DNA of 64,000 bases from positions 6,784,001 to 6,848,000 of the forward strand of contig OY762007.1 of assembly GCA_963665115.1 (NCBI GenBank), given 5' to 3'. The position numbers were made by a program, and so were the translations under genes. The notes beneath the pieces were generated by a model. The model made no database searches. It saw only the letters and a list, made by a program, of their open reading frames with translations, and was not told the DNA's origin. Of this stretch, positions 6,068-29,825 are shown in pieces. The stretch is from an uncultured Rivularia sp. (lineage in GTDB: Bacteria; Cyanobacteriota; Cyanobacteriia; Cyanobacteriales; Nostocaceae). Within the stretch, counting starts at the first letter, position 1, and each line of letters opens with the position of its first letter.

Positions 6068-8938
6068 ATGTTTGAACTGTGGGGTGCTTTATTTATTTTT
6101 ATTTTCTGTCCCCTTTTAGGTGGATTACCAGTAATTTCCTGGATTACCAATGCTTTAGCTAAGCGTCGGTTGGCCCAAATCGGTACTGGTAATATTGGCG
6201 TTAGTGCTGCTTTCTATCATGGTGGAACTTTGGTAGGAGTTCTGGCTGTTTTGTCGGAAGCTCTTAAAGGAGTTATTGCAGTTTTAATCGCACGTGCTTT
6301 TTTTGATAGTGGTTCCTACTGGGAAATAGTTGCCTTAATCGCTTTGGTAATGGGTAGATTTTGGATGAGCAAGGGCGCGGGTACTACTAACGTTGTCTGG
6401 GGATTTGCGGTACACGATCCGATGGCGGCAGCGTTTGTATTTTTAGTGGGTAGTATCAGCTTTCTGCTTTTGCGTTCCAAGGAATTAGCTAAGTATGGGG
6501 TGTTGGTTCTGTTCCCCTTGATTGTGGCTGTACTGCATTTTGACAATATACCCCACATTTTGGCGGCGGTCGTTTTAGCGGGTTTACTTGCTTGGATTTA
6601 CCAACAAATTCCCGATGACTTAAATTTAAAAGCATCCGAAGCGAAACCGGAGTCACAAGCGATGTTTCAGTTGTTGCGCGGCGATCAAAAAATACTTTCT
6701 CTGGATAATGAATTAGATGCTGCAATCGTGGGAAATAAAGCAGCTAGATCCTCCGAAATGAAGCGTGTTGGTTATCCAGTTCCCAAAGGTTGGGTACTGA
6801 CTCCGATGGATGAACCACAAATGCTGATAGATTTTCTTCAACCGTCGGATTTATCTCCTCTTGCAGTACGTTCTTCAGCGTTAGGAGAAGATACAGAGGA
6901 AGCTAGCGGGGCGGGACAATACGAAACTGTTTTGAACGTTACGACAAAAGAAGGTTTACAGCAAGCGATTAGTACAGTTCGCGCTTCTTACGAGCATCCA
7001 GCAGCAGCTCAATATCGTCGCGATCGCAATTTAAAAGAAACTGCAATGGCGGTATTGATTCAGCAACAAATCCAAGGAGTATTTTCTGGAGTTGCTTTTA
7101 GTCGCGATCCAATTACTCAAGAAAATGATGCTGTAGTAATTGAAGCAGCGGCGGGTAGTGCGGCTCAAGTAGTTTCCGGTAGATATACGCCGGAACAATA
7201 TCGAGCTTTTGTAGTGAAAACAGAGAATTTGTCTTCGGTGCATTTGGAAGGTGAAGGACAAATCCCTGCCGTTTTAATCAAGCAAGTAGCTTATTTAGCC
7301 CGCCAAATCGAACAACACTATCACGGTATTCCCCAAGATATCGAGTGGAGTTATGACGGTCAAACTTTGTGGATATTGCAAGTTCGTCCTATCACCACTT
7401 TATTACCTATTTGGACGCGCAAAATTGCTGCTGAAGTAATTCCTGGAATTATTCATCCCTTAACTTGGTCAATTAATCGTCCCTTAACTTGTGGCTCTTG
7501 GGGAGGAATTTTTGCGGTAGTATTGGGCGAACGCGCTATAGGTTTAGATTTCAACGAAACGGCAACGCTTCACTTTTCTAGAGCTTATTTTAACGCCAGT
7601 CTTTTAGGAAAGATTTTCTTACGCATGGGTTTGCCTCCCGAAAGTTTAGAATTTCTAACTAGAGGTGCAAAGATGAGCAAACCGCCTCTAAACTCTACCT
7701 TGTCAAACTTTCCCGGATTGCTGCGATTGCTGACAAGGGAGTTCAGTTTAGAAAAAGATTTTAAGCGAGATTATCGCAAGCGGTTTCAGCCCGGATTGTC
7801 TGAATTAACGCAAAAATCATTACTTGAACTCGATCAAGGCCAGCTTTTAGAAAGAATTGAATTTATTTTAGAACTGCTTAAGAACGCCACTTATTACAGC
7901 ATTATGGCTCCCTTAAGCGCTGCGATTAGACAAGGAATTTTTAAACCAAAAGATAGTGACATTGATAACAGTGCCGCTCCCGAAGTTGCAGCCTTGCGAG
8001 AACTTGGGGAATTAGCCGCAGAAGCAAAATTGATATTACCAGAATTTGATTCAGAAACTTTGTTTGAGGATCTAGCAGTTTCCACACCAGGACAAAAAAT
8101 TCTGGAAGACTTTGAAACGTTACTTAATCGTTACGGTTATCTGAGTGATGTTGGAACCGATATCGCCGTACCCACCTGGAGAGAAGAACCCGAGGCAGTC
8201 AAACTGTTGTTTATCCAGTTAATGCAAGGAAACCAACCTCCAGCAAACAAACGCAAGCGGAGGGGAATAGTACAAAGTCGCGTAGATTTGAAAGGACGAG
8301 TTACAGAAGTTTATTCCCGATTGCTCGCACAGTTACGCTGGAGTTTTATCGCCTTAGAACGAAATTGGTTGCAAAACGGTTCGATTCAAAAACCCGGAGA
8401 TATATTTTTCTTAGAAATCAAAGAAATCCGCAAAATTATCAACGATTCCGATTATCAACTGATTAGTAATTTAACAGAGTTAGTCAAAATAAGAAAAACA
8501 CAACTAGCAGAAGATGGTGAACTTAATCCCGCACCACTGTTAGTTTACGGTAATGCACCTCCGCTATCAGTTTTCTTATCCAGTCCTTCCTTGGTTCCCG
8601 ACGGAATGTTAACAGGAATTCCTGCCAGTCACGGGCTAGTTGAAGGCAGAGTAAAAGTGTTGCGAAATTTACAGGCAGTTCCAGATATTGATAAGCAAAC
8701 AATTTTGGTAGTTCCTTATACAGATTCAGGCTGGGTTGCTTTACTGGCAAGGGCTGGTGGATTGATAGCCGAAGCTGGTGGAAGGCTGAGTCACGGCGCA
8801 ATTATCGCTCGCGAGTACGGAATTCCCGCAGTAATGGACGTACATAATGCTACTTGGTTATTGCAAGATGGGCAGCGAGTACGGATTGATGGCTCTAGGG
8901 GAATTATTGAGATATCGAATGATTTAAGACCGGATTGA
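6068..8938 (+). CDS. PlsY-like glycerol-3-phosphate acyltransferase domain fused to PEP-utilizing (PPDK-N ATP-grasp + phospho-His swivel) domains
   Basis: GTGNIGVS, EALKG, KGAG in the N-terminal membrane region; VRSSALGED, SGVAFSRDP, QDIEW, LQVRPIT; C-terminal GGRLSHGAIIAREYGIPAV. Confidence 0.85.
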   Translation: MFELWGALFIFIFCPLLGGLPVISWITNALAKRRLAQIGTGNIGVSAAFYHGGTLVGVLAVLSEALKGVIAVLIARAFFDSGSYWEIVALIALVMGRFWMSKGAGTTNVVWGFAVHDPMAAAFVFLVGSISFLLLRSKELAKYGVLVLFPLIVAVLHFDNIPHILAAVVLAGLLAWIYQQIPDDLNLKASEAKPESQAMFQLLRGDQKILSLDNELDAAIVGNKAARSSEMKRVGYPVPKGWVLTPMDEPQMLIDFLQPSDLSPLAVRSSALGEDTEEASGAGQYETVLNVTTKEGLQQAISTVRASYEHPAAAQYRRDRNLKETAMAVLIQQQIQGVFSGVAFSRDPITQENDAVVIEAAAGSAAQVVSGRYTPEQYRAFVVKTENLSSVHLEGEGQIPAVLIKQVAYLARQIEQHYHGIPQDIEWSYDGQTLWILQVRPITTLLPIWTRKIAAEVIPGIIHPLTWSINRPLTCGSWGGIFAVVLGERAIGLDFNETATLHFSRAYFNASLLGKIFLRMGLPPESLEFLTRGAKMSKPPLNSTLSNFPGLLRLLTREFSLEKDFKRDYRKRFQPGLSELTQKSLLELDQGQLLERIEFILELLKNATYYSIMAPLSAAIRQGIFKPKDSDIDNSAAPEVAALRELGELAAEAKLILPEFDSETLFEDLAVSTPGQKILEDFETLLNRYGYLSDVGTDIAVPTWREEPEAVKLLFIQLMQGNQPPANKRKRRGIVQSRVDLKGRVTEVYSRLLAQLRWSFIALERNWLQNGSIQKPGDIFFLEIKEIRKIINDSDYQLISNLTELVKIRKTQLAEDGELNPAPLLVYGNAPPLSVFLSSPSLVPDGMLTGIPASHGLVEGRVKVLRNLQAVPDIDKQTILVVPYTDSGWVALLARAGGLIAEAGGRLSHGAIIAREYGIPAVMDVHNATWLLQDGQRVRIDGSRGIIEISNDLRPD

Positions 8939-12652: not shown

Positions 12653-13579
12653 ATGACAGCATTAAGCCAAAGAGATTTATTAGGCATAGCAGATTTGAAT
12701 CAGGTGGAGGTTGAAGAACTTTTGCAAATGGCAACGAGGTTGAAATCACAACAGTTGAAGTTGCAGTGTAATAAAGTATTGGGACTTTTGTTTAAGAAAG
12801 CTTCTACTAGAACCAGAGTCAGTTTTACGGTTGCAATGTATCAATTAGGCGGACAGGTGATTGACCTTAATCCTAACGTTACTCAAGTTAGTCGCGGCGA
12901 ACCAATTCAAGATACGGCAAGAGTTTTGGATAGATATCTTGATATTTTGGCAATTCGTACCTTTGAACAAGAAGAATTACAAACCTTCGCAAATTATGCC
13001 CGAATTCCGGTAATCAATGCTCTGACAGATTTAGAGCATCCCTGTCAAATATTGGCGGATTTGTTAACAATTCAGGAGGAATTTCAAACTTTAAAGGGTT
13101 TGACTTTAACTTATGTCGGCGACGGTAACAATGTCGCAAATTCTTTGCTGTTGGGCTGTGCTTTGGTTGGAATGAACGTGAAAATAGCCACTCCGGGCGG
13201 ATACGAACCTTCAGCAAATATTGTGGAACAAGCACGGGCAATTTCAGATGGAAAAACTGAAGTTATTATTACCAAAGATCCTCAAATAGCCGCAAAGAAT
13301 GCTAATATACTTTATACTGATGTATGGGCAAGTATGGGGCAAGAAGAAGAAGCAGACGATCGAATGCCAATTTTCAAACCCTACCAAATTAATCAGGAAT
13401 TGTTGAGTTTTGCTGACCCAAAAGCGATTGTTTTGCACTGTTTACCAGCGCATCGCGATGAGGAAATAACAAATGATGTTATTGAAGGCGAACATTCGCG
13501 GGTTTGGGAACAAGCAGAGAATCGACTCCACGCTCAAAAGGCTTTACTTGCCAGTATCTTAGACGCGGAACAAGTTTAA
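12653..13579 (+). CDS. argF: Ornithine carbamoyltransferase
   Basis: STRTRVSF, HPCQ, YTDVWASMGQE, HCLP, QAENRLH. Confidence 0.97.
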   Translation: MTALSQRDLLGIADLNQVEVEELLQMATRLKSQQLKLQCNKVLGLLFKKASTRTRVSFTVAMYQLGGQVIDLNPNVTQVSRGEPIQDTARVLDRYLDILAIRTFEQEELQTFANYARIPVINALTDLEHPCQILADLLTIQEEFQTLKGLTLTYVGDGNNVANSLLLGCALVGMNVKIATPGGYEPSANIVEQARAISDGKTEVIITKDPQIAAKNANILYTDVWASMGQEEEADDRMPIFKPYQINQELLSFADPKAIVLHCLPAHRDEEITNDVIEGEHSRVWEQAENRLHAQKALLASILDAEQV

Positions 13580-13714
13580 ATTTGAGGAAGACGGATTTTG
13601 GATTTTCTCTTAATTACGATCCAAAATCTCCCCGGTTTACACTTCTAATTCTAAATTTATTTAAAAAATTGCAATATAAAAGGCAAAAAACTTTGCCGTT
13701 ATGAGGTTTTTTGT

Positions 13715-13728
13715 AGTACTAATGTTCT
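13715..13728 (+). promoter_or_regulatory. LexA box upstream of lexA
   Basis: AGTACTAATGTTCT fits the Anabaena-type consensus RGTAC-N3-DGTWCB, 33 bp before the ATG. Confidence 0.85.
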
Positions 13729-13761
13729 AAGGACATTTGTATTTTACTTCCCTATAAATTT

Positions 13762-14370
13762 ATGGACAAACTGACAGAAGCACAAAGAGAACTTTACGAT
13801 TGGCTGACGGAATATATCCGAATGCGTCAGCATTCACCTTCAATTCGTCAGATGATGCAAGCGATGAATTTGAAGTCACCAGCACCTATTCAAAGCCGTT
13901 TGGAGCATTTACGCAACAAAGGATATATTGAGTGGAGTGAAGGGAAAGCACGGACAATTAGAGTTTTGCATCCCGAAGAACCCGGCGTACCGATTTTGGG
14001 AACCATAGCTGCTGGTGGTTTAATCGAACCCTTTACCGATGCTGTGGAACATTTGGATTTTAAAGAGATAAAATTACCATTCCAAACTTATGCTTTGCGG
14101 GTAACTGGCGACAGCATGGTTGAGGATTCCATAGTTGATGGAGACATGGTATTTCTGCGTCCGGTACAGGAACCAGATATGCTCAAAGATGGTACCATCG
14201 TCGCCGCAATGGTAGACGGGCACGGTACGACATTAAAGCGGTTTTATCGTACAAGCAGCGAACGTATTACCCTCGAACCTGCAAACCCCAAATATCAGCC
14301 AATTGAAGTTGATGCAGGGCAGGTACAGGTGCAAGGTTCTTTAGTTGCCGTTTGGCGTAATTACAACTGA
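13762..14370 (+). CDS. lexA: SOS repressor LexA
   Basis: N-terminal wHTH (SPSIRQMMQAM), IAAG cleavage site, GDSM serine, TLKR lysine. Confidence 0.97.
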   Translation: MDKLTEAQRELYDWLTEYIRMRQHSPSIRQMMQAMNLKSPAPIQSRLEHLRNKGYIEWSEGKARTIRVLHPEEPGVPILGTIAAGGLIEPFTDAVEHLDFKEIKLPFQTYALRVTGDSMVEDSIVDGDMVFLRPVQEPDMLKDGTIVAAMVDGHGTTLKRFYRTSSERITLEPANPKYQPIEVDAGQVQVQGSLVAVWRNYN

Positions 14371-14555
14371 AGTAGGGCATTGGGCATGGGAATAGTGAAG
14401 AGTTAGGAATTAGGAGTTATGAGTAGTAAGTAGAGAGTAGTGAGTAGTAAGTTATGAATTTTTATTCTACCCCCTCTACCCCCTTCTCCTTGTCCCCCCA
14501 TCCCCCATGCCTTTAATTAAGAATCATTAATCACCGCCAGGGTAGCTGCCATTTT

Positions 14556-16043
14556 ATGTATTTGACGCAAAAAAAATATCATCAGGCACCAATCACTTTT
14601 CGTCTGAAAATTCCTTATCGTGCAGGGGAAAAGAAGGGTACTTATCAAGCAAAACAGCTATTGCCGGGATGTCCGAAAATTCCGCCATCTCTGCAATTGC
14701 GAGATTACCAAAAGCAAGCTGTAAATAATTGGTTTGCGAATAATGGTAGGGGTACTTTAAAAATGGCGACTGGTAGCGGTAAAACTATCACGGCACTGGC
14801 AATTACTTGGGAATTATATAGTCAAATAAATTTGCAAGTATTGTTAGTGGTGTGCCCTTACCGTCATCTTGTCACCCAATGGGCGCGGGAATGCGAAAAG
14901 TTTGGTTTAAAGCCGATTTTAGCTTTTGAAAATGTCCGCACTTGGCAAACGCAACTTTCGGAGCAGCTTTACAATGTGCGTTCTAGTTCTCAACAGTTTC
15001 TCACAATTGTTACTACTAATTCAACGTTGATAAGTGATGGTTTCCAATCTCAATTAAAATACTTTCCTGAAAAAACTTTGATTATTGGCGATGAAGCGCA
15101 TAATTTGGGTTCGCCAAAGTTAGAAGAAAGTTTACCGCATAGTGTTGGATTAAGGTTGGGGTTATCTGCCACACCGGAAAGATATTTTGATGAGGTAGGA
15201 ACGGTGGCGGTATTTAATTATTTTGGTGCGGTTTTGCAACCGGAATTTACTTTGAGAGATGCGATTACTCAAGGTGCTTTGGTACGCTATCTTTATTATC
15301 CGATATTGATAGAATTAACTGAATCTGAAAGTCTTGCTTATGCCAAATTGACGCGGAAGATTGGGCGGGTTTTGATGTATAAGCAGCGAGAAAGTGGCGA
15401 TTTGATTAATATTGAAGATAATGAAGATATCAAATCTTTATTAATTCAGCGTGCAAGGTTGGTAAGTGCCGCTGAAAATAAATTAAATGCTTTGCGGGAA
15501 TTGATGTTAAGTCGTCGCGAAACTACTCATACATTATTTTATTGCAGCGATGGCTCTCAAGAAGCGGAAGGGCGTGCGAATTTACGTCAATTGAAGGAAG
15601 TAACTCGCATTTTAGGAGTCGAGTTGGGTTATAGAGTTAGTACCTATACGGCAGAAACTTCTTTGGTAGAGAGAGAAGCTTTAAGAAGTCAATTTGAAAG
15701 TGGAGAATTACAAGGTTTAGTTGCAATTCGCTGTCTGGATGAAGGAGTTGATATTCCAGCGATTAAAACAGCCGTGATCTTAGCAAGTTCGAGCAATCCC
15801 CGTCAATTTATCCAGCGGCGGGGAAGAGTTTTACGTCCTCATCCAGGTAAGGAACGTGCAACTATATTCGATATGATTGTACTGCCTCCAGATTTAGATC
15901 GAAAGACTTTAGAAGTGGAGCGTAATTTGTTGAGAAAGGAATTGCGGCGCTTTGTTGAGTTTGCCGATTTAGCTGACAATGCTGGTGAAGCAAGGATGAA
16001 ATTGCTGGATTTACAAAAGCGGTATGGATTGATGGATGTTTAA
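14556..16043 (+). CDS. SF2 (DEAH, type III Res-like) helicase associated with DNA phosphorothioation; PbeA-like
   Basis: LRDYQ, MATGSGKT, GDEAH, GLSATP, LDEGVDIP, FIQRRGRVLR; context next to dnd genes; no nuclease domain recognised. Confidence 0.85.
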   Translation: MYLTQKKYHQAPITFRLKIPYRAGEKKGTYQAKQLLPGCPKIPPSLQLRDYQKQAVNNWFANNGRGTLKMATGSGKTITALAITWELYSQINLQVLLVVCPYRHLVTQWARECEKFGLKPILAFENVRTWQTQLSEQLYNVRSSSQQFLTIVTTNSTLISDGFQSQLKYFPEKTLIIGDEAHNLGSPKLEESLPHSVGLRLGLSATPERYFDEVGTVAVFNYFGAVLQPEFTLRDAITQGALVRYLYYPILIELTESESLAYAKLTRKIGRVLMYKQRESGDLINIEDNEDIKSLLIQRARLVSAAENKLNALRELMLSRRETTHTLFYCSDGSQEAEGRANLRQLKEVTRILGVELGYRVSTYTAETSLVEREALRSQFESGELQGLVAIRCLDEGVDIPAIKTAVILASSSNPRQFIQRRGRVLRPHPGKERATIFDMIVLPPDLDRKTLEVERNLLRKELRRFVEFADLADNAGEARMKLLDLQKRYGLMDV

Positions 16044-16652: not shown

Positions 16653-16841
16653 ATGTTAAAAACCGTGATGAAAAAACAGCATAATATAGATGAAGTACAA
16701 CAACCAATAAAGTGCGCTTCACCAGAAGTACGGCAAATTATCGAGCAAGTATGGCATTTAGAAAAAAGTAGACTTGATAAAAAAAGTTTTGGTCATATTA
16801 ACGAAGATATTTTAGCAATCGTTAAGGAAGCTGTAAAATGA
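16653..16841 (+). CDS. 62-aa protein translationally coupled to the ATPase (PbeB-like position)
   Basis: Stop overlaps the ATPase start (ATGA at 16838-16841); helical EVRQIIEQVWHLEK...EDILAIVKEAVK. Confidence 0.75.
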   Translation: MLKTVMKKQHNIDEVQQPIKCASPEVRQIIEQVWHLEKSRLDKKSFGHINEDILAIVKEAVK

Positions 16842-18901
16842 AGCTGACTTCTATCAAGCTTTGTAACTTTCGTTCTTTTTACGGTAAAACTTGTGAAATA
16901 ACTCTTGCTGGGACAAGCTCAAACAATACTACTATTATTTACGGTAATAATGGTGCGGGTAAAACGAGTTTGCTGAATGCATTTACATGGGTATTATACG
17001 AAAAGTTTAGTGCAGCTTTTGCTTCGATTGACCAACTTGTAAATAAAAGAGCGATCGCCGAAGCGAAAATTGGGCAAGGTGTGGAATGTTGGGTAGAGTT
17101 AGCGTGGGAACACGACAGCAAACGCTATCGAGTCAAACGTCAATGTCGAGTTTACAAACATGAAAATGATATTGACGTTGGTAAAACAGAAATATATATG
17201 CAGGTAGCGGGAGATGACGGTAGATGGTATCTTCCACCGCAACGACCGGAAGAGATTATCGGACAAATTTTACCTGCTAGTTTACATCAATACTTTTTTT
17301 TCGATGGCGAAAGAATTGAAGAAATAGTTCGTTCGGATAAGAAGGCGGAAATTGCGGAAGCTACTAAAATATTTTTGGGTGTAGAGGTAATAAATCGTTC
17401 AATTCGACATTTACAAGAAGCCAAGAAAAGTTTAGAAAATGAGTTGAGAATAATCGGTGATTCGGAAATTAAAAAGTTATTGAAACAGCAGGGTAAAATT
17501 GAGCTTGAAATTGAAATAATTAGCAAACGTCAGCAAGAAATTATTAAAGAATTAGAATATCAAAATACTTTTAAAAAAGAAACTAGTAAACGTTTGCGGG
17601 AATTGAATGCGGCAAAGGATTTACAGGAAAGGCGGCAGGAATTAGAAAAACAAAAAGCGTCGCATCAAGATAATTTACGACAAACTAGAGAAACTATCAA
17701 AAAAGCCATCTCCACACGCGGCTATACAGTATTGTTACCGGAAACAACAGTACAGTTTCGAGAAATTATCGATAATTTGAAGCAGAAGGGAAAGTTAACT
17801 ACAGGGATTTCGCGAGAGTTTATTCAAGAGCTATTAAAATCAAGTAGCTGTATTTGCGGTACGAGTTTGAATGAAGATACAACTCGCGTAAATGTCGAAA
17901 CCTGGTTAGAGAAAGCAGGCTCCTCGGAAGTCGAAGAAACAGCAATTAGAATCAGCGCTCAAGTTGATGAAATTGACAAACAAGTAGCATTATTCTGGGA
18001 AGAAATTGATAAGGAACAAGCTAGAATTAGTCAGTTAAGACAGGTTATTGCTGAAATTGAAGCAGAGTTAGACAATATTGAAGAAAGATTAAGAAAAGAT
18101 CCTAGTGAAGAGATTAGAAGTTTACAAAAGCGTTTAGATAAAATTGAAGAAAAAATTACAGAATTAACTTTAGAGCAAGGTGCCAACCAGCAAAAAGTAA
18201 TTAACCTAAAAACCGAATTAGAAAGTTTAAATAAACAAATATCCAAGCAGAAATTAAACGAAGAAAAGCAGATATTAGCACAGCGTCGCATCAGCGCCAC
18301 ACAAGACGCGATCGATAGATTAACTCAAGTCAAAGTTTTGCAGGAAGAGCAATTCCGCTTGCAATTAGAAAAACGAGTGCAGGAGATATTTAGCGAAATT
18401 TCCTTTACACCTTATATTCCCACAATCAGCGAAAAATACGAATTAACGTTAATAGAAAATACTTCTGGTTTAGCAATGCCAGTTGCAGCATCTACCGGAG
18501 AAAATCAAGTTCTCAGTTTATCGTTTATTAGCAGCATTATCGATCGAGTGCGGGATTGGAGTCAAAATAAAATGCTCATGGTAGCCGATAGCAGCACGTT
18601 TCCAATTGTTATGGATTCACCTTTTGGAAGCTTAGATGTAATTTACCGAAAGCACATAGCTCAAATCATTCCGAAATTAGCAAATCAATTAATCGTATTA
18701 GTTACTAAAACGCAATGGAGGGGTGAAGTAGAAGACGAAATGTCATACCGAGTTGGTAGAGAATATGTTTTGACTTATTATTCTTCCAAACCCGATTGCG
18801 AACAAGATTTTATTGAATTAAGCGGAGACAGATATATGCTGGTAAAGCAAAGCCCAAATAATTTTGAATATAGTGAAATTGTGGAAGTTGAGAGAGAGTA
18901 A
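16838..18901 (+). CDS. Rad50/SMC-like ABC ATPase with central CxC motif; DndD paralog, PbeC-like
   Basis: NFRSF, Walker A GNNGAGKTS, YFFFDGE, long coiled coils with CICG at the apex, signature ASTGENQ, Walker B VMDSPFGSLD. Confidence 0.9.
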   Translation: MKLTSIKLCNFRSFYGKTCEITLAGTSSNNTTIIYGNNGAGKTSLLNAFTWVLYEKFSAAFASIDQLVNKRAIAEAKIGQGVECWVELAWEHDSKRYRVKRQCRVYKHENDIDVGKTEIYMQVAGDDGRWYLPPQRPEEIIGQILPASLHQYFFFDGERIEEIVRSDKKAEIAEATKIFLGVEVINRSIRHLQEAKKSLENELRIIGDSEIKKLLKQQGKIELEIEIISKRQQEIIKELEYQNTFKKETSKRLRELNAAKDLQERRQELEKQKASHQDNLRQTRETIKKAISTRGYTVLLPETTVQFREIIDNLKQKGKLTTGISREFIQELLKSSSCICGTSLNEDTTRVNVETWLEKAGSSEVEETAIRISAQVDEIDKQVALFWEEIDKEQARISQLRQVIAEIEAELDNIEERLRKDPSEEIRSLQKRLDKIEEKITELTLEQGANQQKVINLKTELESLNKQISKQKLNEEKQILAQRRISATQDAIDRLTQVKVLQEEQFRLQLEKRVQEIFSEISFTPYIPTISEKYELTLIENTSGLAMPVAASTGENQVLSLSFISSIIDRVRDWSQNKMLMVADSSTFPIVMDSPFGSLDVIYRKHIAQIIPKLANQLIVLVTKTQWRGEVEDEMSYRVGREYVLTYYSSKPDCEQDFIELSGDRYMLVKQSPNNFEYSEIVEVERE

Positions 18902-18958
18902 TCAATAAACAATGAACAATTATCAATAAACATTATGTTGTAAGGTGAGTTACGGCAC

Positions 18959-19231
18959 GAGAAACTTTGATTTTAAGTTATAAGTTAGAAAATGTCGTAA
19001 CGCACCAATATTCGGATTAAAAAACCGCAGAGGCGCAGAGAGTGCTGAGGTAAGAATTAAAGAGAGTTGGTAATTTTAAACTAACAGAATATCTAATATT
19101 TAATTTAAAGAAGCAAAGAAAATTTGATTTTAGGTTATGACTTATGAAATACCGTAACGCACCAATATTCGGATTAAAAAACCGCAGAGGCGCAGAGAGC
19201 GCTGAGGAAGAGTGAAAGAGAGTTGGTAATT
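18959..19231 (+). repeat. Imperfect approx. 115-bp direct repeat (two copies) between the ATPase and its partner gene
   Basis: cgtaacgcaccaatattcggattaaaaa(a)ccgcagaggcgcagagag(t/c)gctgagg...aaagagagttggtaatt in about 18959-19075 and 19117-19231. Confidence 0.85.
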
Positions 19232-19257
19232 GATAATTGATAATTGATAATTGAAAA

Positions 19258-19728
19258 ATGGCTGAAACTGGAAGAATAAGGGTTGCAAAAGATAAGGCTG
19301 AGTTAGTACAAAGTTTAACATCTTGGAATGGTGCAACGGGACCTTTTCAAACTTTTGCTGACGTGGTTGTTTTTGCGGCTACTTTGGGTAAAAAGCACAA
19401 TCGCCGCGTACCTTTGGGAGAAATTTCTAAAAGGGAACCTTCACCAATTAAAGTCGAAACTTTTGCTTCAATGGGTTATGACTGGGTGATTAAATTGATC
19501 GGAATTACCGAAACGAAAGATATAAAAGTACTTTCGGTAACTGAGGAAGAATCTCAAACTGAACGTAATAATATTTTTGAAGAATATACGAATGGTGGTT
19601 TGGAAATATTGCAAACTGAATTGCGAGGTGCGGTAGATTATTCGGAAAGGCTGTTGTTGATGTTGAGTGCGGAAAGGTTTAAGGAAGATAAGCAGGGAGA
19701 ATTTGATTTGAGTCGGTTTTTGTCTTGA
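19258..19728 (+). CDS. DNA phosphorothioation-associated protein 4-like small protein (PbeD-like position)
   Basis: RIRVAKDKAELV, GPFQTFADVVVFAA, IFEEYTNGGLEIL; follows the ATPase. Confidence 0.8.
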   Translation: MAETGRIRVAKDKAELVQSLTSWNGATGPFQTFADVVVFAATLGKKHNRRVPLGEISKREPSPIKVETFASMGYDWVIKLIGITETKDIKVLSVTEEESQTERNNIFEEYTNGGLEILQTELRGAVDYSERLLLMLSAERFKEDKQGEFDLSRFLS

Positions 19729-19804: not shown

Positions 19805-21817
19805 TTATTCGGTATCTTCAGCATCTATCTCATCTTCAACAGATACTTGTTTCGTCAACAACTCACTATAAATTTCGGGCAAACCAGCTACTAATACAGC
19901 AGAAAATCTGTCACGCACCATATCCTCTTTTTTTTGCTCGCCCATTTTTTCATAGTCTTTGCCATAAAATGTATTAGTGTCAAAACCTTTATACAATGCT
20001 TTGTAAGCATCCGTACAATTTGACCACTGGACTTTATTTACATCTGCTCTGAAAAAATTTAATAGCTTTCGTCTGGATAACATCGGATAACCATTTGCAG
20101 CGTCTATTTGGACTTTACGAGAACCAAAATACCATAAGCATAGTAAGTAAAATATTCTATCTTCTACTGTTTTCGCAACCTTAATTTTGTCATTACCAGG
20201 ATTTATCGCTACAAATGTCCACAAACGATATGGGTAATTTGCTAAATTAACATCTACCTTCAAAATACCTCGATCGTAAAGCCGATTTAGAAAATCTATA
20301 ACATTATTTATATTGCCTAAACTTTCATCTGTTCTTGTATTTTTAAATTCTATAAGTTTTCCTAAACGAACTATAGCTTTTTGAAATATAACTTTGAAAG
20401 CCCACTGGTTTTCTTTCAAAGCATTAATAGCTTTGCTATGGCTAATTATTTTTGTTTGGTGCCAATCACTATCTCTTGCATTTTCCTGCTCTTTAATCGT
20501 TCCTTTGTGTTTACTTGTCTGAGCTTGGAATTTGCCAAAAGTACCTTCAATTAAATCGTTATCGCGGGCATATTCAAGCAAGTTATTGTAAGGTTTGAAA
20601 TCCAGTAAAAGCTTAATTAACCAAGGACGAAAGTTAACTTCAAAGCCCTTTATTGCTGAACTCAGATAATTCTGTGGTAATCGAGAAAAAGGTGTTTCTG
20701 GCTCTTCATCTTCATCGCAGTAATCTTCTTGATAATAAGTGAAGAGAGAGCGTCCTTCATACTCAACTGGTTGTCCGTTTATGCCGAGTGCATCGTCAAT
20801 ACTTTTTATAAACCCTTCAATTTGCTTCTTTTCCATAGGATCGCGTGGTGGTTTCAAATCCAAAGTTGCAGAAACCAAAAGATCCAAATTTACAAGTGAA
20901 TTCAGATAGTAGGAACTATCAAATTTGACAGAATCATCTTGCCAACGTACTAAGGAAAGAGGAAGTCTATCGTCCGCATCTTCACCTGTTTTCTCTGTAA
21001 TCAGCGTTCTGACGCACTGTGCGTTAATACTTTGATCGTCAAGAATTAGCTCTCTAGCTTTATCAACTGTCTTAGCATTTTTATTCAAGTCAGTAAATAA
21101 TTCACGAGCAATTCCTCGAATGGAATAATCCGCTTCACTTTGAATATTTTGAAACCCTGCATCAGGATGAAGTAAAACAAATAAAATTGGAATCTTAGTT
21201 TGTTTTTCCGTGGTATGAAGAGTACCACCTCTAAATTTTGGATCTTCACGAAAAGTACGAAGCGCCCAAAGACGATGTTGTCCATCTACAGCTACTGGTA
21301 AAATCCGCTCCTTATCCCAACGAAGCCGCGCTTGTGTTCCAACAGAAACGAATTGAACACCACCAAAGTTAGCAATTTTAGCTTGGGGTTGGTTCCATTG
21401 TGCGTCATCAGTATCACTACCATCGTAAGGAATAGGGGGAGAATTAGTATCTGGAGAATTATCAAAGGTATCTTGAATTTTTTCGTCATCTCCCTTTGGC
21501 ATCAATACTATAGTAATAGCATTGAAAAATTTTAACTTTTTAGGATCGAGAAGATAACCTTTAACAATATCGTCTCCTACTCTCTTCTCATCAATTTCTC
21601 GTTGAAAAAGTTCTTTCAGCGACCATTTTGTATCGATAGAAGCGGGAATCTGCTCGGCAATCTTCAGTTCATCAATTGCTCGGTTAATTTCAATTAAAGA
21701 AAGAAAATAAGGAAGCGCTATACCTTCGGATAGAGTATAAGTTCCAGTTAAACCATAAAGAGGTTTATTAAAACTTGCTTTTTCTTCGTCATTCGAGAAT
21801 ATAGGCATTTTTATCAC
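19805..21817 (-). CDS. DGQHR / DndB-like domain protein, 670 aa with long C-terminal extension
   Basis: LFQREID, KFFNAITIVL, VAVDGQHRLWAL, ARELFTDLNKNAKTV; start GTG 21817 or ATG 21808. Confidence 0.88.
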   Translation of the reverse strand: MIKMPIFSNDEEKASFNKPLYGLTGTYTLSEGIALPYFLSLIEINRAIDELKIAEQIPASIDTKWSLKELFQREIDEKRVGDDIVKGYLLDPKKLKFFNAITIVLMPKGDDEKIQDTFDNSPDTNSPPIPYDGSDTDDAQWNQPQAKIANFGGVQFVSVGTQARLRWDKERILPVAVDGQHRLWALRTFREDPKFRGGTLHTTEKQTKIPILFVLLHPDAGFQNIQSEADYSIRGIARELFTDLNKNAKTVDKARELILDDQSINAQCVRTLITEKTGEDADDRLPLSLVRWQDDSVKFDSSYYLNSLVNLDLLVSATLDLKPPRDPMEKKQIEGFIKSIDDALGINGQPVEYEGRSLFTYYQEDYCDEDEEPETPFSRLPQNYLSSAIKGFEVNFRPWLIKLLLDFKPYNNLLEYARDNDLIEGTFGKFQAQTSKHKGTIKEQENARDSDWHQTKIISHSKAINALKENQWAFKVIFQKAIVRLGKLIEFKNTRTDESLGNINNVIDFLNRLYDRGILKVDVNLANYPYRLWTFVAINPGNDKIKVAKTVEDRIFYLLCLWYFGSRKVQIDAANGYPMLSRRKLLNFFRADVNKVQWSNCTDAYKALYKGFDTNTFYGKDYEKMGEQKKEDMVRDRFSAVLVAGLPEIYSELLTKQVSVEDEIDAEDTE

Positions 21818-23410: not shown

Positions 23411-23633
23411 CTCGTTACTAGCCTCCAGGCTGGGAACGCATTCTCCGAGGCTCTGCCTCTCGTTAAATCCTTGCTTAGAGGCGGAGCCTCACTTCGGGGA
23501 TTCCTAGTCAAAGACTAGGAAACCAGGTAGAAATTCCGAGGCTAATAGCTAAAGTCTACTAAAGTAGACTGAAAAATATCTAGTCGTCTTTAGACGACTT
23601 TCGCTATTAGCTGGGGGTTTGCAACCCCCAGTG
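23411..23633. repeat. Two adjacent multi-hairpin dispersed repeats
   Basis: 23411-23526 (gaggctctgcctc...gaggcggagcctc dyad) and 23531-23633 (gctaatagctaaagtc...gactttcgctattagc dyad). Confidence 0.75.
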
Positions 23634-24249: not shown

Positions 24250-25830
24250 TCACAAAACCCCCGGCAATCCCACCTGTTTCGGCTCTACAAACTTACCTTT
24301 AAAATCCACAGTTTGATCTTCAATAGTTCTAGCTTTCGCTAAATCGTTCCTTAATTCTGCACGCTCCATCTTGTCTTTAACCCCACCCAAAATATAAACG
24401 AGTAACCGCGTTGCTAATTCTTTCCCGGCAACTAATACCCGCTTGCGATTCGCATCGTATAAAACCCCATACCAAAGAGATTTAGGAAAGTCCATTCCAC
24501 TAAAACCGCCTTTACTATCAAATTTTCTTAACTTTTCAAAAATATCTTCTATAGAAAAACCTTTTTCAAATATTAAGATACCTAAAGCCTTAGCTAATGC
24601 CATTTGTCCGACTGGACGAAATAAAATATTACCTTCTCCCTCGTCTTTTTCAAAACTAAACCTGCGGAACATTGGCGTGTCTTCGTGTTCTAAAAGTTTA
24701 TAGCTTGGTAAAGTTGCTAAATTGTCAAATAGCTCGTAAAAATCTTCTATCGCTGATTCTAATTCTTCATCCTCCGGGCGCATGGGAATTAAACCTTTGT
24801 CTAAGGGCTTCCAATGAGGATACTTGTGTTCTAAATAACGTTCTGACATCTCTTTTAAAGCTTGCAAAGTTGTCAAAACTGTAGACTTTGCTGCAACTGT
24901 GGCACTATTCCAATTTACGCGAGATTTCCGATCTTTACGCTGTTCTAAAAGTGGATGGCTAACGGCTATCTTTCTGGCAACAATAGAAAAACCATCGTCT
25001 TCATTTAACTGTGCTAACTGTCCTTTACTCAAGGGTACAGCCATTAAGTTAACGTGTACAAAAATTGACCTTACCCTGCGTCTTGCTTCCTCGCGGGTTT
25101 CTCCTTGGGCAACTGCACAAATAAATTCTATACCGATTTTTTCTTGGGGTAATTGTTGTAAATATTCGGCTTCAACTCCGTATTTTTCTGTTAAATTATC
25201 AATCGTAATAAAATTGTTAGCAGCGGCTTTATCTTTCTTGTAGCGCGGTAACTTACCAGTTTTGAGTATCTCCATCAAACCCTGTACCGCCATTAATCTA
25301 TGTTGTCCATCTAATGCATAAATAGTTACATTTTCTTCTCTAATATCAAGCAAGCCAAATTGACCGTTTTCATCTAAACTAGTAAATTCCGTAGTAGATT
25401 TTTTGGCTCGTCCTTTATTGTCCCACTCAGATGCTTTGGAATCATTTACCCAAGGCTGACTAATTACAGCTAATACGGGAGGAAATTTATGATTTTTACG
25501 TGCTGCTAAATACTGAACTAAAGGTGCTTGTCGCGACCAATCTAAGGGGCGTTGCTGAATATCATCTATACTTTCTGCGTCAATTTCGATATTATCAGTA
25601 TCGGGATTGTACTTACTTCGCAATAATGGTAACAAAGATGCAAAGCGAACCTGACTAGCAAACCATTCTAAAGTTACCGAACCAACATAAGCTTGAGTCC
25701 CGCCCATTTCTGTTTTTTGGACTAATAGCTGTTGATTTTCACCAAGATATTTGGTTAATAAAGTAGAAAATTTCTTTTTATCTGGACTGCTAATAACTGA
25801 GAAAGGTTCAGATGCACTCTTTTTCATCAC
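24250..25830 (-). CDS. DGQHR domain protein (DndB-like), 526 aa, divergent from dndC
   Basis: QQRPLDWSR, HKFPPVL, YALDGQHRLMAV, RSIFVHVN, QLNEDD. Confidence 0.9.
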   Translation of the reverse strand: MMKKSASEPFSVISSPDKKKFSTLLTKYLGENQQLLVQKTEMGGTQAYVGSVTLEWFASQVRFASLLPLLRSKYNPDTDNIEIDAESIDDIQQRPLDWSRQAPLVQYLAARKNHKFPPVLAVISQPWVNDSKASEWDNKGRAKKSTTEFTSLDENGQFGLLDIREENVTIYALDGQHRLMAVQGLMEILKTGKLPRYKKDKAAANNFITIDNLTEKYGVEAEYLQQLPQEKIGIEFICAVAQGETREEARRRVRSIFVHVNLMAVPLSKGQLAQLNEDDGFSIVARKIAVSHPLLEQRKDRKSRVNWNSATVAAKSTVLTTLQALKEMSERYLEHKYPHWKPLDKGLIPMRPEDEELESAIEDFYELFDNLATLPSYKLLEHEDTPMFRRFSFEKDEGEGNILFRPVGQMALAKALGILIFEKGFSIEDIFEKLRKFDSKGGFSGMDFPKSLWYGVLYDANRKRVLVAGKELATRLLVYILGGVKDKMERAELRNDLAKARTIEDQTVDFKGKFVEPKQVGLPGVL

Positions 25831-26038: not shown

Positions 26039-27632
26039 ATGACTCTTGCCCAACAATCAGAAAAAAGCCAGCCAGCACCCGTTACGGTAATTGATAAAAT
26101 TCCTCTTATTACCAAAGAAATCCAGGAATTATATTTACTAGACGAAATACCTTGGATTATTGGCGTGTCTTGGGGTAAAGACTCCAGCACAATTTTGCAA
26201 CTTATTTGGAATGCGATCGCAACTCTACCACCAAAGAAACGCGGTAAAACAATTCACGTAATTACTACGGATACGCTGGTAGAAAATCCTATCGTTTCGG
26301 CATGGGTTCGCAATTCGATGAAGTTGCTGGGATCTGCTGCGAAAGAAAAAGGAATGCCCATCGAGCCTCATTTGCTGTTGCCAGTAATTCAAGATACATT
26401 TTGGGTGAATTTAATCGGCAGGGGTTATCCGGCTCCCCGCAATCAGTTTCGCTGGTGTACGCCGCGTTTGAAAATTAATCCAGCTAACCAGTTTATTCGC
26501 GAAATGGTTAGAGCTAACGGTGAAACAATTTTGGTTTTGGGTACTCGCAAAGCCGAAAGTTCGAGACGAGCCGCCACAATGCAAAAGCATCAAGCGGGTA
26601 GAATCCGCGAGCGTTTGAGTCCGAATGCCAGTTTACCAAACTCTTTGATTTATACTCCTATCGAAGATTGGAGCAACAACGATGTGTGGATTTACCTCAA
26701 TCAATGTGAAAATCCTTGGGGTGGTAATAATAAAGATTTATTTTCGATGTATCGCGGTGCGACGGCAGATAACGAATGTCCTTTAGTTGTCGATACTTCT
26801 ACCCCCAGTTGCGGCGATTCGCGCTTTGGTTGTTGGGTTTGTACGATGGTGACAAAAGATAAATCAATGGAAGCGATGATTCAGAATGATGAAGAAAAAG
26901 AATGGATGCAGCCGCTTTTAGATATTCGTAACGAGCTAGATATTCAAGACGACCATGATAAGCGCGATTTTCGCAGAATTTGGGGTAAAGTACAGCTTTT
27001 CGAGCGTAATAAAGATGGTAAAACATCAGTGCAGCCAGTACCAGGGTCCCTATACAAAATATTGGCGCGAACATTGGTTAACGAGGGTATTGTCAGCGCA
27101 AACCCAAGCTCGTCAAACTGCGCCGGAAGATATGCGCGATATTACCTTAATTACCCCAGATGAACTGAGTGAAATCAGGCGCATTTGGTTAGAAGAAAAA
27201 CACGAATTTGACGATAGTTTACCCCGGATTTATCAAGAAGTGACAGGAGAATCTTTTGTAGACTCCCGCCCCGGTGCGGGTTACAGCTTATTAGGCAGCG
27301 ATGAGTGGGCAGTATTAGAAGAAATCTGCGACAACGACGCGATGCATTTAGAATTGATGGCGAAACTGTTAGATACAGAACGGCAATATCGTAAAAAATC
27401 GCGTCGCGTCGGAATCTACGATGCCTTAGAAAAATGTTTTGAAACAAGCTCCCGAACTCAAGAAGACGCAATTAAAAACGCCCACTTTAAACGTGACTTA
27501 AAAGATGCTGCTGGCAAAGGTGATATTGACAAAGTAAAACAGTTGACTTTAGGCGACGTTACGGCAGAAAAAGCAACAGAAAAACCAGAAAAATCTAAAA
27601 CTTGGGCAGATAAAAAATTTAAAAAACAATGA
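26039..27632 (+). CDS. dndC: DNA phosphorothioation sulfurtransferase DndC (apparent +1 frameshift at 27044-27046)
   Basis: PAPS-reductase-like SWGKDS, DTLVENP, GRGYPAP, RWCT, LGTRKAES, CPLVVD, SCGDSRFGCWVC; removing one G gives VPGPYTKYWREHWL. Confidence 0.93.
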
Positions 27633-27836
27633 ACAATTATCAATTATCAATTATCAATTATCAATGAATAATGAAAAATATATGCTGCAATGGTTTGGTG
27701 AGGCAATCCGATAAATTATTAAGGAGTTTAATTATATGCTTTTAATAAATGATAACTATTGACTTATAACACTATAAAGTTAAAGATAAAATCGAATTGA
27801 CTGATAATTGATAATTGATAATTGATAATTGATTAC

Positions 27837-29825
27837 ATGATATTTCTCGAACTTGTTTTAGAAAACTTTGGTCCTTATTATGGTCGTCAAGTCATAAATT
27901 TGCAGCCAAATAATGATGATAATCCCCACCCGATTATTCTTGTCGGTGGAATGAATGGTGGAGGAAAAACAACTTTTATGGATGCGATTCGTCTGGCACT
28001 TTACGGACATCGCGCCCAATGTTCGACTCGCGGTAATTTGAGTTATCATGACTTTCTTAATCAATGCGTAAATACCCATAAATCACCTACAGAGAAAACT
28101 CGCATTGAGCTAGCTTTTGAACATATTGAAAACGATAAACCCGTTAGATATCGTGTAGTTAGAACTTGGGAAAATAATCCTAAAGATGGTAAAGATCATT
28201 TAGGAATTTTAGATATTCGTGAAAACGATGAATGGCTGGATGAGGGATTAGTAAATATTTGGGATGAATATATTGAAAATTTATTACCTTTAGGAATTTC
28301 CAACTTATTTTTATTTGATGGCGAACAGGTAAAAGAACTTGCCGAACAAGAAGAACCACCAACTATTGTAATCGAAGCAATTCGCGCTCTTTTAGGTTTA
28401 GAATTAGCAGAACGTTTGACAGCTGATTTGGAAATATTAGTAAATCGCAAACGTAAAGAACTTGTAGATACAAAAGAACTGGCAAACTTAGAAGAAATAG
28501 AAAAGCGACTCAAAGATTTACAGGAAGAATACGAAGAAACCAAAAATGTAGAAGCGCAGGAATTAGAATTTCTACAGCAAGCAGAAAAAAATCAACAGGA
28601 AGCCTTTGATAAATTTGTCAGCGAAGGCGGAAAAATAGCTTCAGAAAGCAGTCAGTTAGAACAGCAAAAAATAGCAAAAGCTAAAGAAGCAGAAAACACT
28701 CGTCAGGAAATGACTGAATTAGCGGCGGGCGTTTTACCGTTGAAATTAATCGAACCATTACTAAATCAAGCTCAAGAAAGAGGTGAAGTCGAATCCTTAG
28801 TTAAGCAACAGCAAATAGCGCGAGATATATTGCTCGAACGAGATAAACGCTTGCTTAACTTGATTAATAAAATAGATATAGCAGCAGATCAATTTTCTCA
28901 AATAAAAACCTTTTTAGACGAAGACATACAAACTATAAATACATCCTTAAAAGAATCACCTTGGTTATTAGCAGATGCAGAAAGTTTGAGTAAATTAGGC
29001 AATATTCTCTACTACTTGCAAACTACCAGCAATACCGCCAAACAGCAATTAAAACAATTAAAAAATAAAGACGAAGAAATAATTACTTTAGAAAGACAAA
29101 TACAAGCAGCAGCAGCACCAGAAGATTATCAAAAGTTAGTAGAATCAGTTAAAGAAGCCCAAAATAAAGTTACCGATATCAAAAGTAATTGCGAAACAGT
29201 AACTCGTCGCTTAATAGAACTACAAACAGAAATTGATAAATTAAAAAAAGATTTAACAGAATATAGCGTTCAAACCATCGAACATAAAAGCAAAGAAAAC
29301 ATCATTAATGCATCCACAAGAGTACAAGAAACCCTCAAACTATTTCGCGAACGACTTACCTTAAGAAAACTTAACAAATTAGAAAACGAAGTCACAGAAT
29401 GCTTCCGCTACCTGCTCCACAAATCCGATTTAGTACATCGCATCATCATCGACACCAACACCTTCAGCCTTTCCCTATACGACTCAAACTCAAAACAAGT
29501 TGACAAACATCGTTTATCAGCAGGAGAAAAACAACTATTGGCGATCGCCTTCCTTTGGGCATTAGCAAGAGTATCCGGGCATCAATTACCCGTTGCCATC
29601 GACACCCCACTAGGAAGATTAGACTCATCTCACCGCAGCAACTTAGTAGAAAGATACTTCCCCTCAGCCTCCCATCAAGTAATACTACTTTCCACCGACA
29701 CAGAAATCGCCGAAAAAGAAGTAAAAACCCTCCGCAAGAATGAGGCGATCGCCCGCGAATACGTCCTCAAATACTCTCAGAAAACTCGTCAAACTACAGT
29801 AGAATCTGGGTATTTTTGGAAATAG
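27837..29825 (+). CDS. dndD: DNA sulfur modification ATPase DndD
   Basis: ENFGPY, GGMNGGGKTT, LFLFDGE, coiled coil, LSAGEKQLLA, IDTPLGRLDSSHR, SHQVILLSTDTEI; between dndC and dndE. Confidence 0.95.
   Translation: MIFLELVLENFGPYYGRQVINLQPNNDDNPHPIILVGGMNGGGKTTFMDAIRLALYGHRAQCSTRGNLSYHDFLNQCVNTHKSPTEKTRIELAFEHIENDKPVRYRVVRTWENNPKDGKDHLGILDIRENDEWLDEGLVNIWDEYIENLLPLGISNLFLFDGEQVKELAEQEEPPTIVIEAIRALLGLELAERLTADLEILVNRKRKELVDTKELANLEEIEKRLKDLQEEYEETKNVEAQELEFLQQAEKNQQEAFDKFVSEGGKIASESSQLEQQKIAKAKEAENTRQEMTELAAGVLPLKLIEPLLNQAQERGEVESLVKQQQIARDILLERDKRLLNLINKIDIAADQFSQIKTFLDEDIQTINTSLKESPWLLADAESLSKLGNILYYLQTTSNTAKQQLKQLKNKDEEIITLERQIQAAAAPEDYQKLVESVKEAQNKVTDIKSNCETVTRRLIELQTEIDKLKKDLTEYSVQTIEHKSKENIINASTRVQETLKLFRERLTLRKLNKLENEVTECFRYLLHKSDLVHRIIIDTNTFSLSLYDSNSKQVDKHRLSAGEKQLLAIAFLWALARVSGHQLPVAIDTPLGRLDSSHRSNLVERYFPSASHQVILLSTDTEIAEKEVKTLRKNEAIAREYVLKYSQKTRQTTVESGYFWK

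What the first reader, a model, noticed from the sequence alone, without database searches (positions are those of the whole stretch)
16653..19728. Second DndD/DndE-like module: CxC Rad50-type ATPase with a coupled microprotein and a small partner
Seen: the ATPase mirrors DndD motif by motif (NFRSF/NFGPY, FFDGE/LFDGE, STGENQ/SAGEKQ, DSPFGSLD/DTPLGRLD) but adds CICG at the coiled-coil midpoint. It is followed by a small gene as DndD is followed by DndE, and preceded by a 62-aa ORF overlapping by ATGA. Inference: a paralogous reader module mirroring the writer module, with CxC acting as a zinc-hook-like dimerisation site and the 156-aa protein possibly having a DndE-like fold.
Basis: partly seen in the sequence, partly recalled or inferred. 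Interest (0 to 1): 0.7.

Follow-up and report, generated by a model that had tools for sequence, protein, structure and literature searches.

The report
Nuclease-less cyanobacterial Pbe phosphorothioate module
The three genes are real but are the already published PbeB-PbeC-PbeD core of an anti-virus system tied to sulfur-marked DNA; the twist is that across this cyanobacterial order the partner helicase lacks its usual nuclease, so the module likely works without cutting DNA.

Summary
The 62-aa ORF, the CxC ATPase and the 156-aa gene are PbeB, PbeC and PbeD of PbeABCD (Xiong 2019), which Rakesh 2024 re-annotated as a CxC zinc-hook ABC ATPase with a clade-2 DndE and a small protein. PbeC scores 1137 bits on PADLOC. 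CxC is kept in 41 of 41 homologues. The 156-aa model (pLDDT 90) has DndE as best structural match (Z 9.1). This scan found the module before on other DNA (8 windows).

What differs from the published type: the upstream PbeA (495 aa) is a helicase without the N-terminal HKD nuclease. All 114 order genomes with a PbeA match carry such a copy; all 6 matching genomes outside the order carry the fused form. The ATPase is present in 112 of 129 order genomes, follows family taxonomy, and is kept or lost together with dndC/dndD even when the genes lie megabases apart. Likely mechanism: a phosphorothioate-licensed DNA clamp that blocks foreign DNA without cleaving it. A housekeeping role is the main rival. 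The dndC frameshift in the window is probably a sequencing error.

The parts
14556..16043 (+). pbeA, helicase-only form (495 aa SF2 helicase; no N-terminal HKD/PLD nuclease)
   Evidence: TIGR04095 677 bits over cut-off 600; PADLOC PbeA 553 bits matching only profile positions 241-681 of 682; Walker A, DEAH and motif VI intact, no HxK anywhere
16653..16841 (+). pbeB / small protein (62 aa as called; probably 57 aa from ATG 16668), stop overlaps the ATPase start (ATGA)
   Evidence: 35 of 40 loci; 4-nt overlap in 30 of 35; 1583 homologues; pN/pS 0.29; no Pfam or PADLOC family hit for this protein, so the PbeB name rests on size and position
16838..18901 (+). pbeC, CxC-clade coiled-coil ABC ATPase (687 aa)
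   Evidence: PADLOC PbeC 1137.5 bits over 1-647; TIGR03185 DndD only 166 bits, under cut-off 245.85; motifs conserved
17849..17860 (+). codons of C338-I-C340-G, the predicted zinc hook
   Evidence: both Cys in 41 of 41 homologues; named a Zn-hook in PMC10853773; zinc binding not tested
19258..19728 (+). pbeD, clade-2 DndE (double ribbon-helix-helix, 156 aa)
   Evidence: TIGR04062 187 bits over cut-off 74.25; model pLDDT 90.3; DndE 7x4e Z 9.1, rmsd 3.5, 111 aligned, and 5wtu Z 8.2; Foldseek ranks 1-10 all DndE chains
19805..21817 (-). accessory 670-aa DGQHR/DndB-like gene in a variable slot; not part of the core
   Evidence: weak TIGR03187 and PF14072 hits; found in 3 of 45 family genomes; skipped in a contig of run X4
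24250..25830 (-). conserved 526-aa DGQHR (DndB-like) protein, divergent from dndC
   Evidence: TIGR03187 196 bits; beside dndC in family loci
26039..27632 (+). dndC, split in the window by one extra base at 27044 (probably a sequencing error)
   Evidence: two TIGR03183 pieces; relatives whole at 522-562 aa; extra base absent in contigs of 3 of 4 runs
27822..29825 (+). canonical dndD
   Evidence: TIGR03185 702 bits
30012..30398 (+). canonical dndE (clade 1)
   Evidence: TIGR03184 128 bits; PF08870 142 bits
30681..32165 (+). phosphorothioation-associated putative methyltransferase
   Evidence: TIGR04096 662 bits

Best explanation
The three genes are PbeB, PbeC and PbeD of the known PbeABCD (CxC ABC-ATPase) system, here with a PbeA that has no nuclease domain, and they likely form a phosphorothioate-licensed DNA clamp that blocks foreign DNA without cutting it. 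Shown: identity of the parts, invariant CxC, loss of the HKD domain, intact helicase motifs, joint retention with dndC and dndD. Predicted: PbeD has the DndE fold; PbeB sits on PbeC (weak). Inferred: two PbeC molecules join their ATPase heads on ATP and their coiled-coil tips through one zinc held by two CxC motifs; PbeD inserts its two-stranded sheet into the major groove and reads the target motif; PbeA moves or loads the complex along DNA; PbeB couples or gates the ATPase; phosphorothioate marks written by DndCDE on the host chromosome switch the complex on, and unmarked incoming DNA is held so that it cannot replicate. Confidence in the identification alone is about 0.97; the figure given is for the mechanism.
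For: Family scores. CxC 41 of 41. DndE fold. The archaeal system stops viral DNA replication with no cleavage detected, needs phosphorothioate, needs pbeB, pbeC and pbeD absolutely, and keeps low resistance without pbeA (PMC6459918 sections 8 and 11). Nuclease loss: 115 of 129 match rows start at query position 210 or later of a 717-aa fused PbeA; 29 short ORFs of 457-537 aa keep Walker A, DEAH and motif VI, 29 of 29 each; no PbeA-type HKD domain in 45 of 45 family genomes. Dependence on the writer: dndC in 109 of 112 ATPase-positive and 3 of 17 ATPase-negative order genomes; dndD in 42 of 44 and 3 of 17; PbeD in 44 of 44 and 0 of 17. PbeC-PbeB prediction: weak support, score 0.60, best of 3 controls 0.00, runs agree in at least 85% of contacts, partner pLDDT at least 70; the mark was reached by 116 of 157 solved and 2 of 215 mismatched pairs, but at 0.60 or under by only 18 of the 157 and by both mismatches.
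Against: Antiviral activity was shown only for an archaeal system whose PbeA keeps the PLD domain, and deleting pbeA cut protection from about 10^4-fold to under tenfold, so PbeA matters and the share due to its nuclease is unknown. Rakesh et al. argue that DNA cleavage is part of the mechanism. Presence in 112 of 129 order genomes, tree congruence with families and scattering of the genes over the chromosome look more like core genes than a typical patchy defence island. Co-occurrence across kin is not independent evidence. No paper found here tests a cyanobacterial Pbe.
Confidence: 0.5

Rival explanations
1. Domesticated housekeeping module: after losing its nuclease the CxC module serves the host chromosome, as a second DNA-scanning partner for the phosphorothioate writer or as a reader of the marks in repair or oxidative-stress handling, with little or no defence role.
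For: Near-core presence (112 of 129); family-congruent ATPase tree, 8 label changes where 8 is the minimum; purifying selection close to lexA and argF levels (pN/pS 0.20-0.31 against 0.19-0.22); genes megabases apart yet all kept, e.g. G200 with ATPase at 3.65, helicase 2.61, dndC 1.98 and PbeD 0.95 Mb; lexA directly upstream of the helicase in 12 of 13 family loci, the 13th cut by a contig end. Jian 2021 reports vertical inheritance of dnd in Cyanobacteriales and proposes an antioxidant origin; Rakesh 2024 proposes that the CxC-DndE pair can itself serve modification.
Against: The only experiment on the family shows defence, and dndCDEA alone wrote the marks in that study. The lexA link is absent in all 24 non-family loci and no LexA-like box lies within 400 bp upstream of the helicase in 37 loci. 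Seventeen order genomes lack the ATPase, so it is not essential.
Confidence: 0.3
2. The module still cuts or kills, but borrows a nuclease or toxic effector in trans (a stand-alone PLD protein, the DGQHR/ParB-like proteins, or another nuclease), as in the restriction or suicide models of Rakesh et al.
For: DGQHR proteins flank the module; Rakesh et al. describe stand-alone nucleases and DndB as possible effectors; the genome holds other PLD-family genes.
Against: The only PLD related to PbeA's in this genome (34-37% identity) is fused to a SNF2-type helicase fragment in an unrelated cassette 5 Mb away. 31 of 45 family genomes have no match to the PbeA HKD domain; the other 14 have only 26-41% matches, nearly all inside 900-1430 aa frames. 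The 670-aa DGQHR gene is in 3 of 45. A nuclease of an unrelated fold is not excluded.
Confidence: 0.15
3. A decaying relic of a once complete defence system.
For: Nuclease lost; operon broken up in many genomes; dndC frameshifted in the window; joint decay seen in G314.
Against: All four genes are intact and under purifying selection, catalytic motifs are conserved, and the dndC frameshift is absent from 3 of 4 runs.
Confidence: 0.04

Closest known systems
PbeABCD of Haloterrigena jeotgali A29 (Xiong et al. 2019, PMC6459918)
   Same: Same gene order and sizes (helicase, 66-aa PbeB, ATPase, 152-aa PbeD) next to dndCDE; PADLOC PbeA and PbeC models match strongly; the paper's supplementary tables already list PbeA/PbeC in Anabaena, Nostoc and Calothrix.
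   Different: Archaeal PbeA has a PLD domain; this PbeA has none. Genes here are spaced (609 and 356 bp gaps) and are often scattered in relatives. No sequence match of the small protein to a PbeB model was found.
CxC ABC-ATPase / clade-2 DndE / small protein system (Rakesh, Aravind, Krishnan 2024, PMC10853773)
   Same: CxC hook at the coiled-coil apex, DndE cognate with two ribbon-helix-helix units, small protein, tandem occurrence with canonical DndDE (936 bacterial taxa in that paper).
   Different: [quoted passage not shown] The main text does not mention cyanobacteria (0 hits); its supplement could not be read.
TIGR04095 and TIGR04062 (Basu et al. 2011 ProPhylo, PMC3226654)
   Same: The helicase and the 156-aa protein pass both cut-offs; both families were defined as strictly phosphorothioation-dependent.
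   Different: TIGR04095 is named a restriction enzyme, but its 451-position model covers only the helicase part, and this protein has no recognisable nuclease.
Canonical DndD-DndE
   Same: Same ABC motifs and full-length 22% identity; same fold of the small partner.
   Different: DndD lacks CxC; the ATPase is under the DndD cut-off (166 against 245.85 bits); PbeD and DndE are not detectably alike in sequence.
Rad50/SbcC
   Same: Coiled-coil ABC ATPase with a mid-arm Cys motif; the only solved relatives by sequence are Rad50 heads (E 1e-4 to 9e-4).
   Different: CxC rather than the CxxC hook (Rad50 motif recalled); no Mre11/SbcD neighbour; 47.5 bits against cut-off 700.

Membership tests
CxC ABC-ATPase system (PbeABCD) | Coiled-coil ABC ATPase of the DndD sister clade with intact ABC motifs | tested here: met
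   PADLOC PbeC 1137.5 bits; motifs conserved in 41 sequences
CxC ABC-ATPase system (PbeABCD) | CxC motif at the coiled-coil apex | tested here: met
   C338/C340 in 41 of 41; 180 and 212 residues from the flanking head motifs
CxC ABC-ATPase system (PbeABCD) | CxC binds zinc and dimerises the arms | not testable with these tools
   needs metal analysis; no dimer model was run
CxC ABC-ATPase system (PbeABCD) | Cognate clade-2 DndE (double ribbon-helix-helix) | tested here: met
   model pLDDT 90.3; DndE Z 9.1 (rmsd 3.5, 111 aligned) and 8.2, TraY 5.6, unrelated rows 3.1 or lower; Foldseek E-values were weak (0.076 best); PADLOC PbeD model hit 4 of 129 family members, not this protein
CxC ABC-ATPase system (PbeABCD) | Small protein (PbeB) directly upstream of the ATPase | tested here: met
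   35 of 40 loci, 4-nt overlap in 30 of 35; met by size and position
CxC ABC-ATPase system (PbeABCD) | Small protein is homologous to archaeal PbeB | tested here: inconclusive
   no Pfam or PADLOC small-protein model matched 36 members
CxC ABC-ATPase system (PbeABCD) | PbeA: SF2 helicase | tested here: met
   TIGR04095 and PADLOC PbeA; motifs intact 29 of 29
CxC ABC-ATPase system (PbeABCD) | PbeA: N-terminal HKD/PLD nuclease | tested here: not met
   495 aa against 683-720 aa in fused forms; lexA ends 185 bp upstream; no HxK; not encoded separately
CxC ABC-ATPase system (PbeABCD) | Linked modification genes (dndCDE or methylase) | tested here: met
   dndC, dndD, dndE 6-11 kb downstream
CxC ABC-ATPase system (PbeABCD) | Phosphorothioate-dependent block of virus replication | not testable with these tools
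   shown only for the archaeal system
Canonical DndD (TIGR03185) | Score over the curated cut-off; no zinc hook | tested here: not met
   166 bits against 245.85; CxC present
Rad50/SbcC | CxxC hook and Mre11/SbcD partner (recalled) | tested here: not met
   Cys at 9, 19, 84, 103, 338, 340, 654: no CxxC; no such neighbour
DndFGH restriction module | dndF/G/H present in the genome | tested here: inconclusive
   TIGR03237 gave no match but also rang in none of the control genomes

The most novel reading that the evidence does not exclude
The ancestor of this cyanobacterial order disarmed a Pbe defence system once, by deleting its nuclease, and kept it as a core, vertically inherited reader of DNA phosphorothioate marks. 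It would be the missing partner of the 'solo' cyanobacterial dnd genes and would serve chromosome maintenance or stress response rather than defence.
Probability: 0.25. Interest if true: 0.65.

Novelty: new variant of a known kind. Interest (0 to 1): 0.3.

Why it matters
The module as flagged is already in print, so it adds little by itself. The nuclease-less form matters for two open points. First, Xiong 2019 saw no DNA cleavage by PbeABCD while Rakesh 2024 argues that cleavage must occur; a natural PbeA without nuclease, kept across an order, lets that be tested directly in a genetically tractable cyanobacterium. Second, Jian 2021 treats cyanobacterial dnd genes as having no restriction partner (0 mentions of pbe in its main text), yet this module is gained and lost with dndC and dndD, so those genes are not solo.

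Tried and rejected
Sequence comparison of the 156-aa protein with DndE found nothing (BLASTP E 0.048; profile-profile probability 0.4%; PDB sequence search; Pfam 0 of relevance in 129 members); only the structure shows the link. A first model from 92 close homologues was poor (pLDDT 52) and was discarded for one from a diverse alignment of 129. A split pbeA (nuclease encoded apart) was rejected. The free quick helicase tree put five fused forms inside the helicase-only set (2 changes; the careful search did not finish; four fused rows were trimmed by length, not by motif), but holding the 29 helicase-only rows together gave a likelihood higher by 7.04, p-AU 0.875: a single loss is not rejected and not proven. 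Promoter and terminator scans were at chance level (24 against 19.4 +/- 4.7; 7 against 4.7 +/- 2.1). No LexA-like box upstream of the helicase in 37 loci (motif recalled). The dndFGH check was uninformative. No Atlas look-alikes could be obtained for the small protein. The 2020 paper that first defined the CxC clade (reference 24 of PMC10853773) could not be read; it and the unread supplement of PMC10853773 may already note the cyanobacterial nuclease loss.
Full report
What is there. The window comes from a heterocyst-type cyanobacterium (top homologues are named from Scytonema, Fischerella, Calothrix, Nostoc and Mastigocoleus). The + strand carries argF, lexA, a 495-aa helicase (14556-16043), the 62-aa ORF, the 687-aa ATPase and the 156-aa gene, then two DGQHR genes on the - strand, then dndC, dndD, dndE and a TIGR04096 gene.

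Identification. PADLOC scores the ATPase as PbeC at 1137.5 bits and the helicase as PbeA at 553 bits. NCBIfam passes the helicase as TIGR04095 and the 156-aa protein as TIGR04062, and fails the ATPase as DndD (166 bits, cut-off 245.85). Xiong et al. 2019 (PMC6459918; abstract, sections 8, 10, 11 and supplement search rows seen) describe pbeABCD: PLD-helicase, 66-aa protein, ATPase, 152-aa protein. It gave about 10^4-fold protection against an archaeal virus, depended on phosphorothioate, and showed no cleavage of viral DNA. Their supplementary tables list PbeA/PbeC in Anabaena, Nostoc and Calothrix.

(a) Fold: with 129 diverse homologues the 156-aa model reached pLDDT 90.3. Against 48,161 solved chains the best matches were DndE 7x4e (Z 9.1, rmsd 3.5, 111 aligned), DndE 5wtu (Z 8.2), an F-plasmid relaxosome chain (Z 5.6), VirC2 (4.2) and single-chain Arc (3.6). 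Foldseek ranked ten DndE chains first, with weak E-values (best 0.076). The Z is middling for a helical protein, but the ranking is clean. (b) CxC: both Cys in 41 of 41. (c) Interaction: ATPase with small protein gave weak support, 0.60 against best control 0.00, with at least 85% contact agreement and partner pLDDT at least 70; the mark was reached by 116 of 157 solved and 2 of 215 mismatched pairs, but at 0.60 or under by only 18 of the 157 and both mismatches. The guess was likely beforehand: the two genes stay coupled (35 of 40 loci; overlap in 30 of 35) while PbeD is nearby in 23 of 40 and the helicase in 21 of 40.

Difference 1: no nuclease. PADLOC's PbeA profile matches only from position 241 of 682; lexA ends 185 bp upstream. 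A fused 717-aa PbeA from another order was searched in 401 genomes of the phylum: 121 matched, with 129 match rows. 115 rows start at query position 210 or later; they are this genome and all 114 matching genomes of the order (five of these matches are partial or broken, one at a contig start, so their N-terminus cannot be judged). The other 14 rows include the N-terminal domain: all 6 matching genomes outside the order and 8 extra copies inside it (7 long, 1 fragment). In fetched loci, 29 short helicases are 457-537 aa and 8 fused ones 683-720 aa. Five of five fused proteins tested hit the PLD-like family (E 3.5e-7 to 1.3e-3; one over the cut-off) and share HEKLG; four of four short ones did not. 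A profile of that domain hit only the 8 fused ORFs and the fragment among all ORFs of 58 loci. The short forms keep Walker A, DEAH and motif VI, 29 of 29 each. The domain is not encoded apart: 31 of 45 family genomes have no match, and 14 have only 26-41% matches in other large proteins, against 54-70% for the other true PbeA domains. In this genome the one relative belongs to a separate cassette.

Difference 2: it behaves like a core gene set. The ATPase is in 112 of 129 order genomes (44 of 45 in the family) and 7 of 271 outside the order. Resident copies form one side of a branch (35 rows, support 96-97) and group by family with the minimum 8 changes (quick methods, midpoint root, one long branch). 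The helicase tree does not reject a single loss of the nuclease (p-AU 0.875), though the free quick tree needed two changes. dndC is in 109 of 112 ATPase-positive and 3 of 17 ATPase-negative order genomes. For a subset of 61 genomes (44 positive, chosen mostly where the genes are scattered, and all 17 negative), PbeD was in 44 of 44 and 0 of 17 and dndD in 42 of 44 and 3 of 17. In G314 the helicase, dndC and dndD all carry stops and the ATPase and PbeD were not found. These genomes are kin, so the counts describe a pattern and are not independent trials. pN/pS against family relatives is 0.20 (helicase), 0.29 (small protein), 0.24 (ATPase) and 0.31 (PbeD), beside 0.19-0.22 for argF and lexA. 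Jian et al. 2021 (PMC8569181; passages and section 7) already report vertical inheritance of dnd in Cyanobacteriales and say restriction partners are absent in Cyanobacteria; they do not mention pbe.

Mechanism. Most likely (0.5) a zinc-hooked PbeC dimer with PbeD as DNA reader, PbeB as coupling subunit and PbeA as motor is switched on by host phosphorothioate and blocks unmarked DNA without cutting it. The parts, the lost nuclease and the joint retention are shown; the fold and the PbeB contact are predicted; the rest is inferred from the archaeal experiments and from Rad50-type architecture (established knowledge). Rivals: a housekeeping reader or co-writer (0.3), a nuclease borrowed in trans (0.15), a relic (0.04).

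dndC. The window's dndC has one extra base at 27044. Contigs of runs X1, X3 and X4 lack it; X2 has it (four runs of one study, one possibly the window's source). A second one-base difference with the same pattern lies at 23520. Both are within 4 bases of a CCAGG, while only 0.85% of the laid stretch is that close to a CCWGG. This suggests a systematic error at methylated sites (a recalled property of long reads); a true mutation in one subculture is not excluded.

Novelty. The flagged trio is already known and this scan met it in 8 other windows. I found no statement in print of the order-wide nuclease loss or of Pbe-dnd co-retention (searches; review PMC12707154 passages; ProPhylo PMC3226654 passages). 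But TIGR04095 is a helicase-only model, Rakesh et al. say 'vast majority', and their supplement and the 2020 paper were not readable, so it may be recorded there. Verdict: a variant of a known system, interest 0.3.

Noticed in passing
window 27044 and 23520: Two one-base insertions, both beside CCAGG, are absent from 3 of 4 runs; the first splits dndC. Probably systematic sequencing errors at methylated sites.
   Followed up: partly
window 19805-21817 (-): 670-aa DGQHR/DndB-like gene found in only 3 of 45 family genomes, each time between pbeC/pbeD and dndC at 74-75% identity, and missing in the strain of run X4: a swappable slot of unknown function.
   Followed up: partly
window 12653-16043: argF-lexA-pbeA synteny: lexA lies 40-532 bp upstream of the helicase in 12 of 13 family loci, even where the helicase has left the ATPase, and in none of 24 other loci. 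An exact match to a recalled LexA-box pattern sits at 13715-13727 before lexA.
   Followed up: partly
L071 7987-17752 (G000:C1 about 1.673-1.683 Mb): Separate cassette with a PLD domain fused to a SNF2-type C-terminal piece (624 aa, looks internally deleted), a methylase-like gene (726 aa) and a 1083-aa ATPase-like gene; names judged by eye from the translations.
   Followed up: no
L064, L065/L086, L087, L088: Some order genomes hold a second, divergent Pbe copy with the full HKD-helicase next to the resident nuclease-less one.
   Followed up: partly
window 30681-32165: TIGR04096 putative methyltransferase after dndE; seen in only 2 of 40 loci within the fetched range; role unknown.
   Followed up: no
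window 18960-19257, 14380-14510: Intergenic gaps hold short tandem repeats and a duplicated element of about 60 bp between pbeC and pbeD; many contigs lie on them, so they are genome-wide repeats.
   Followed up: no
window 6068-8938: 956-aa fusion of a PlsY-like acyltransferase domain with a PEP-utilising (PPDK-like) enzyme.
   Followed up: no
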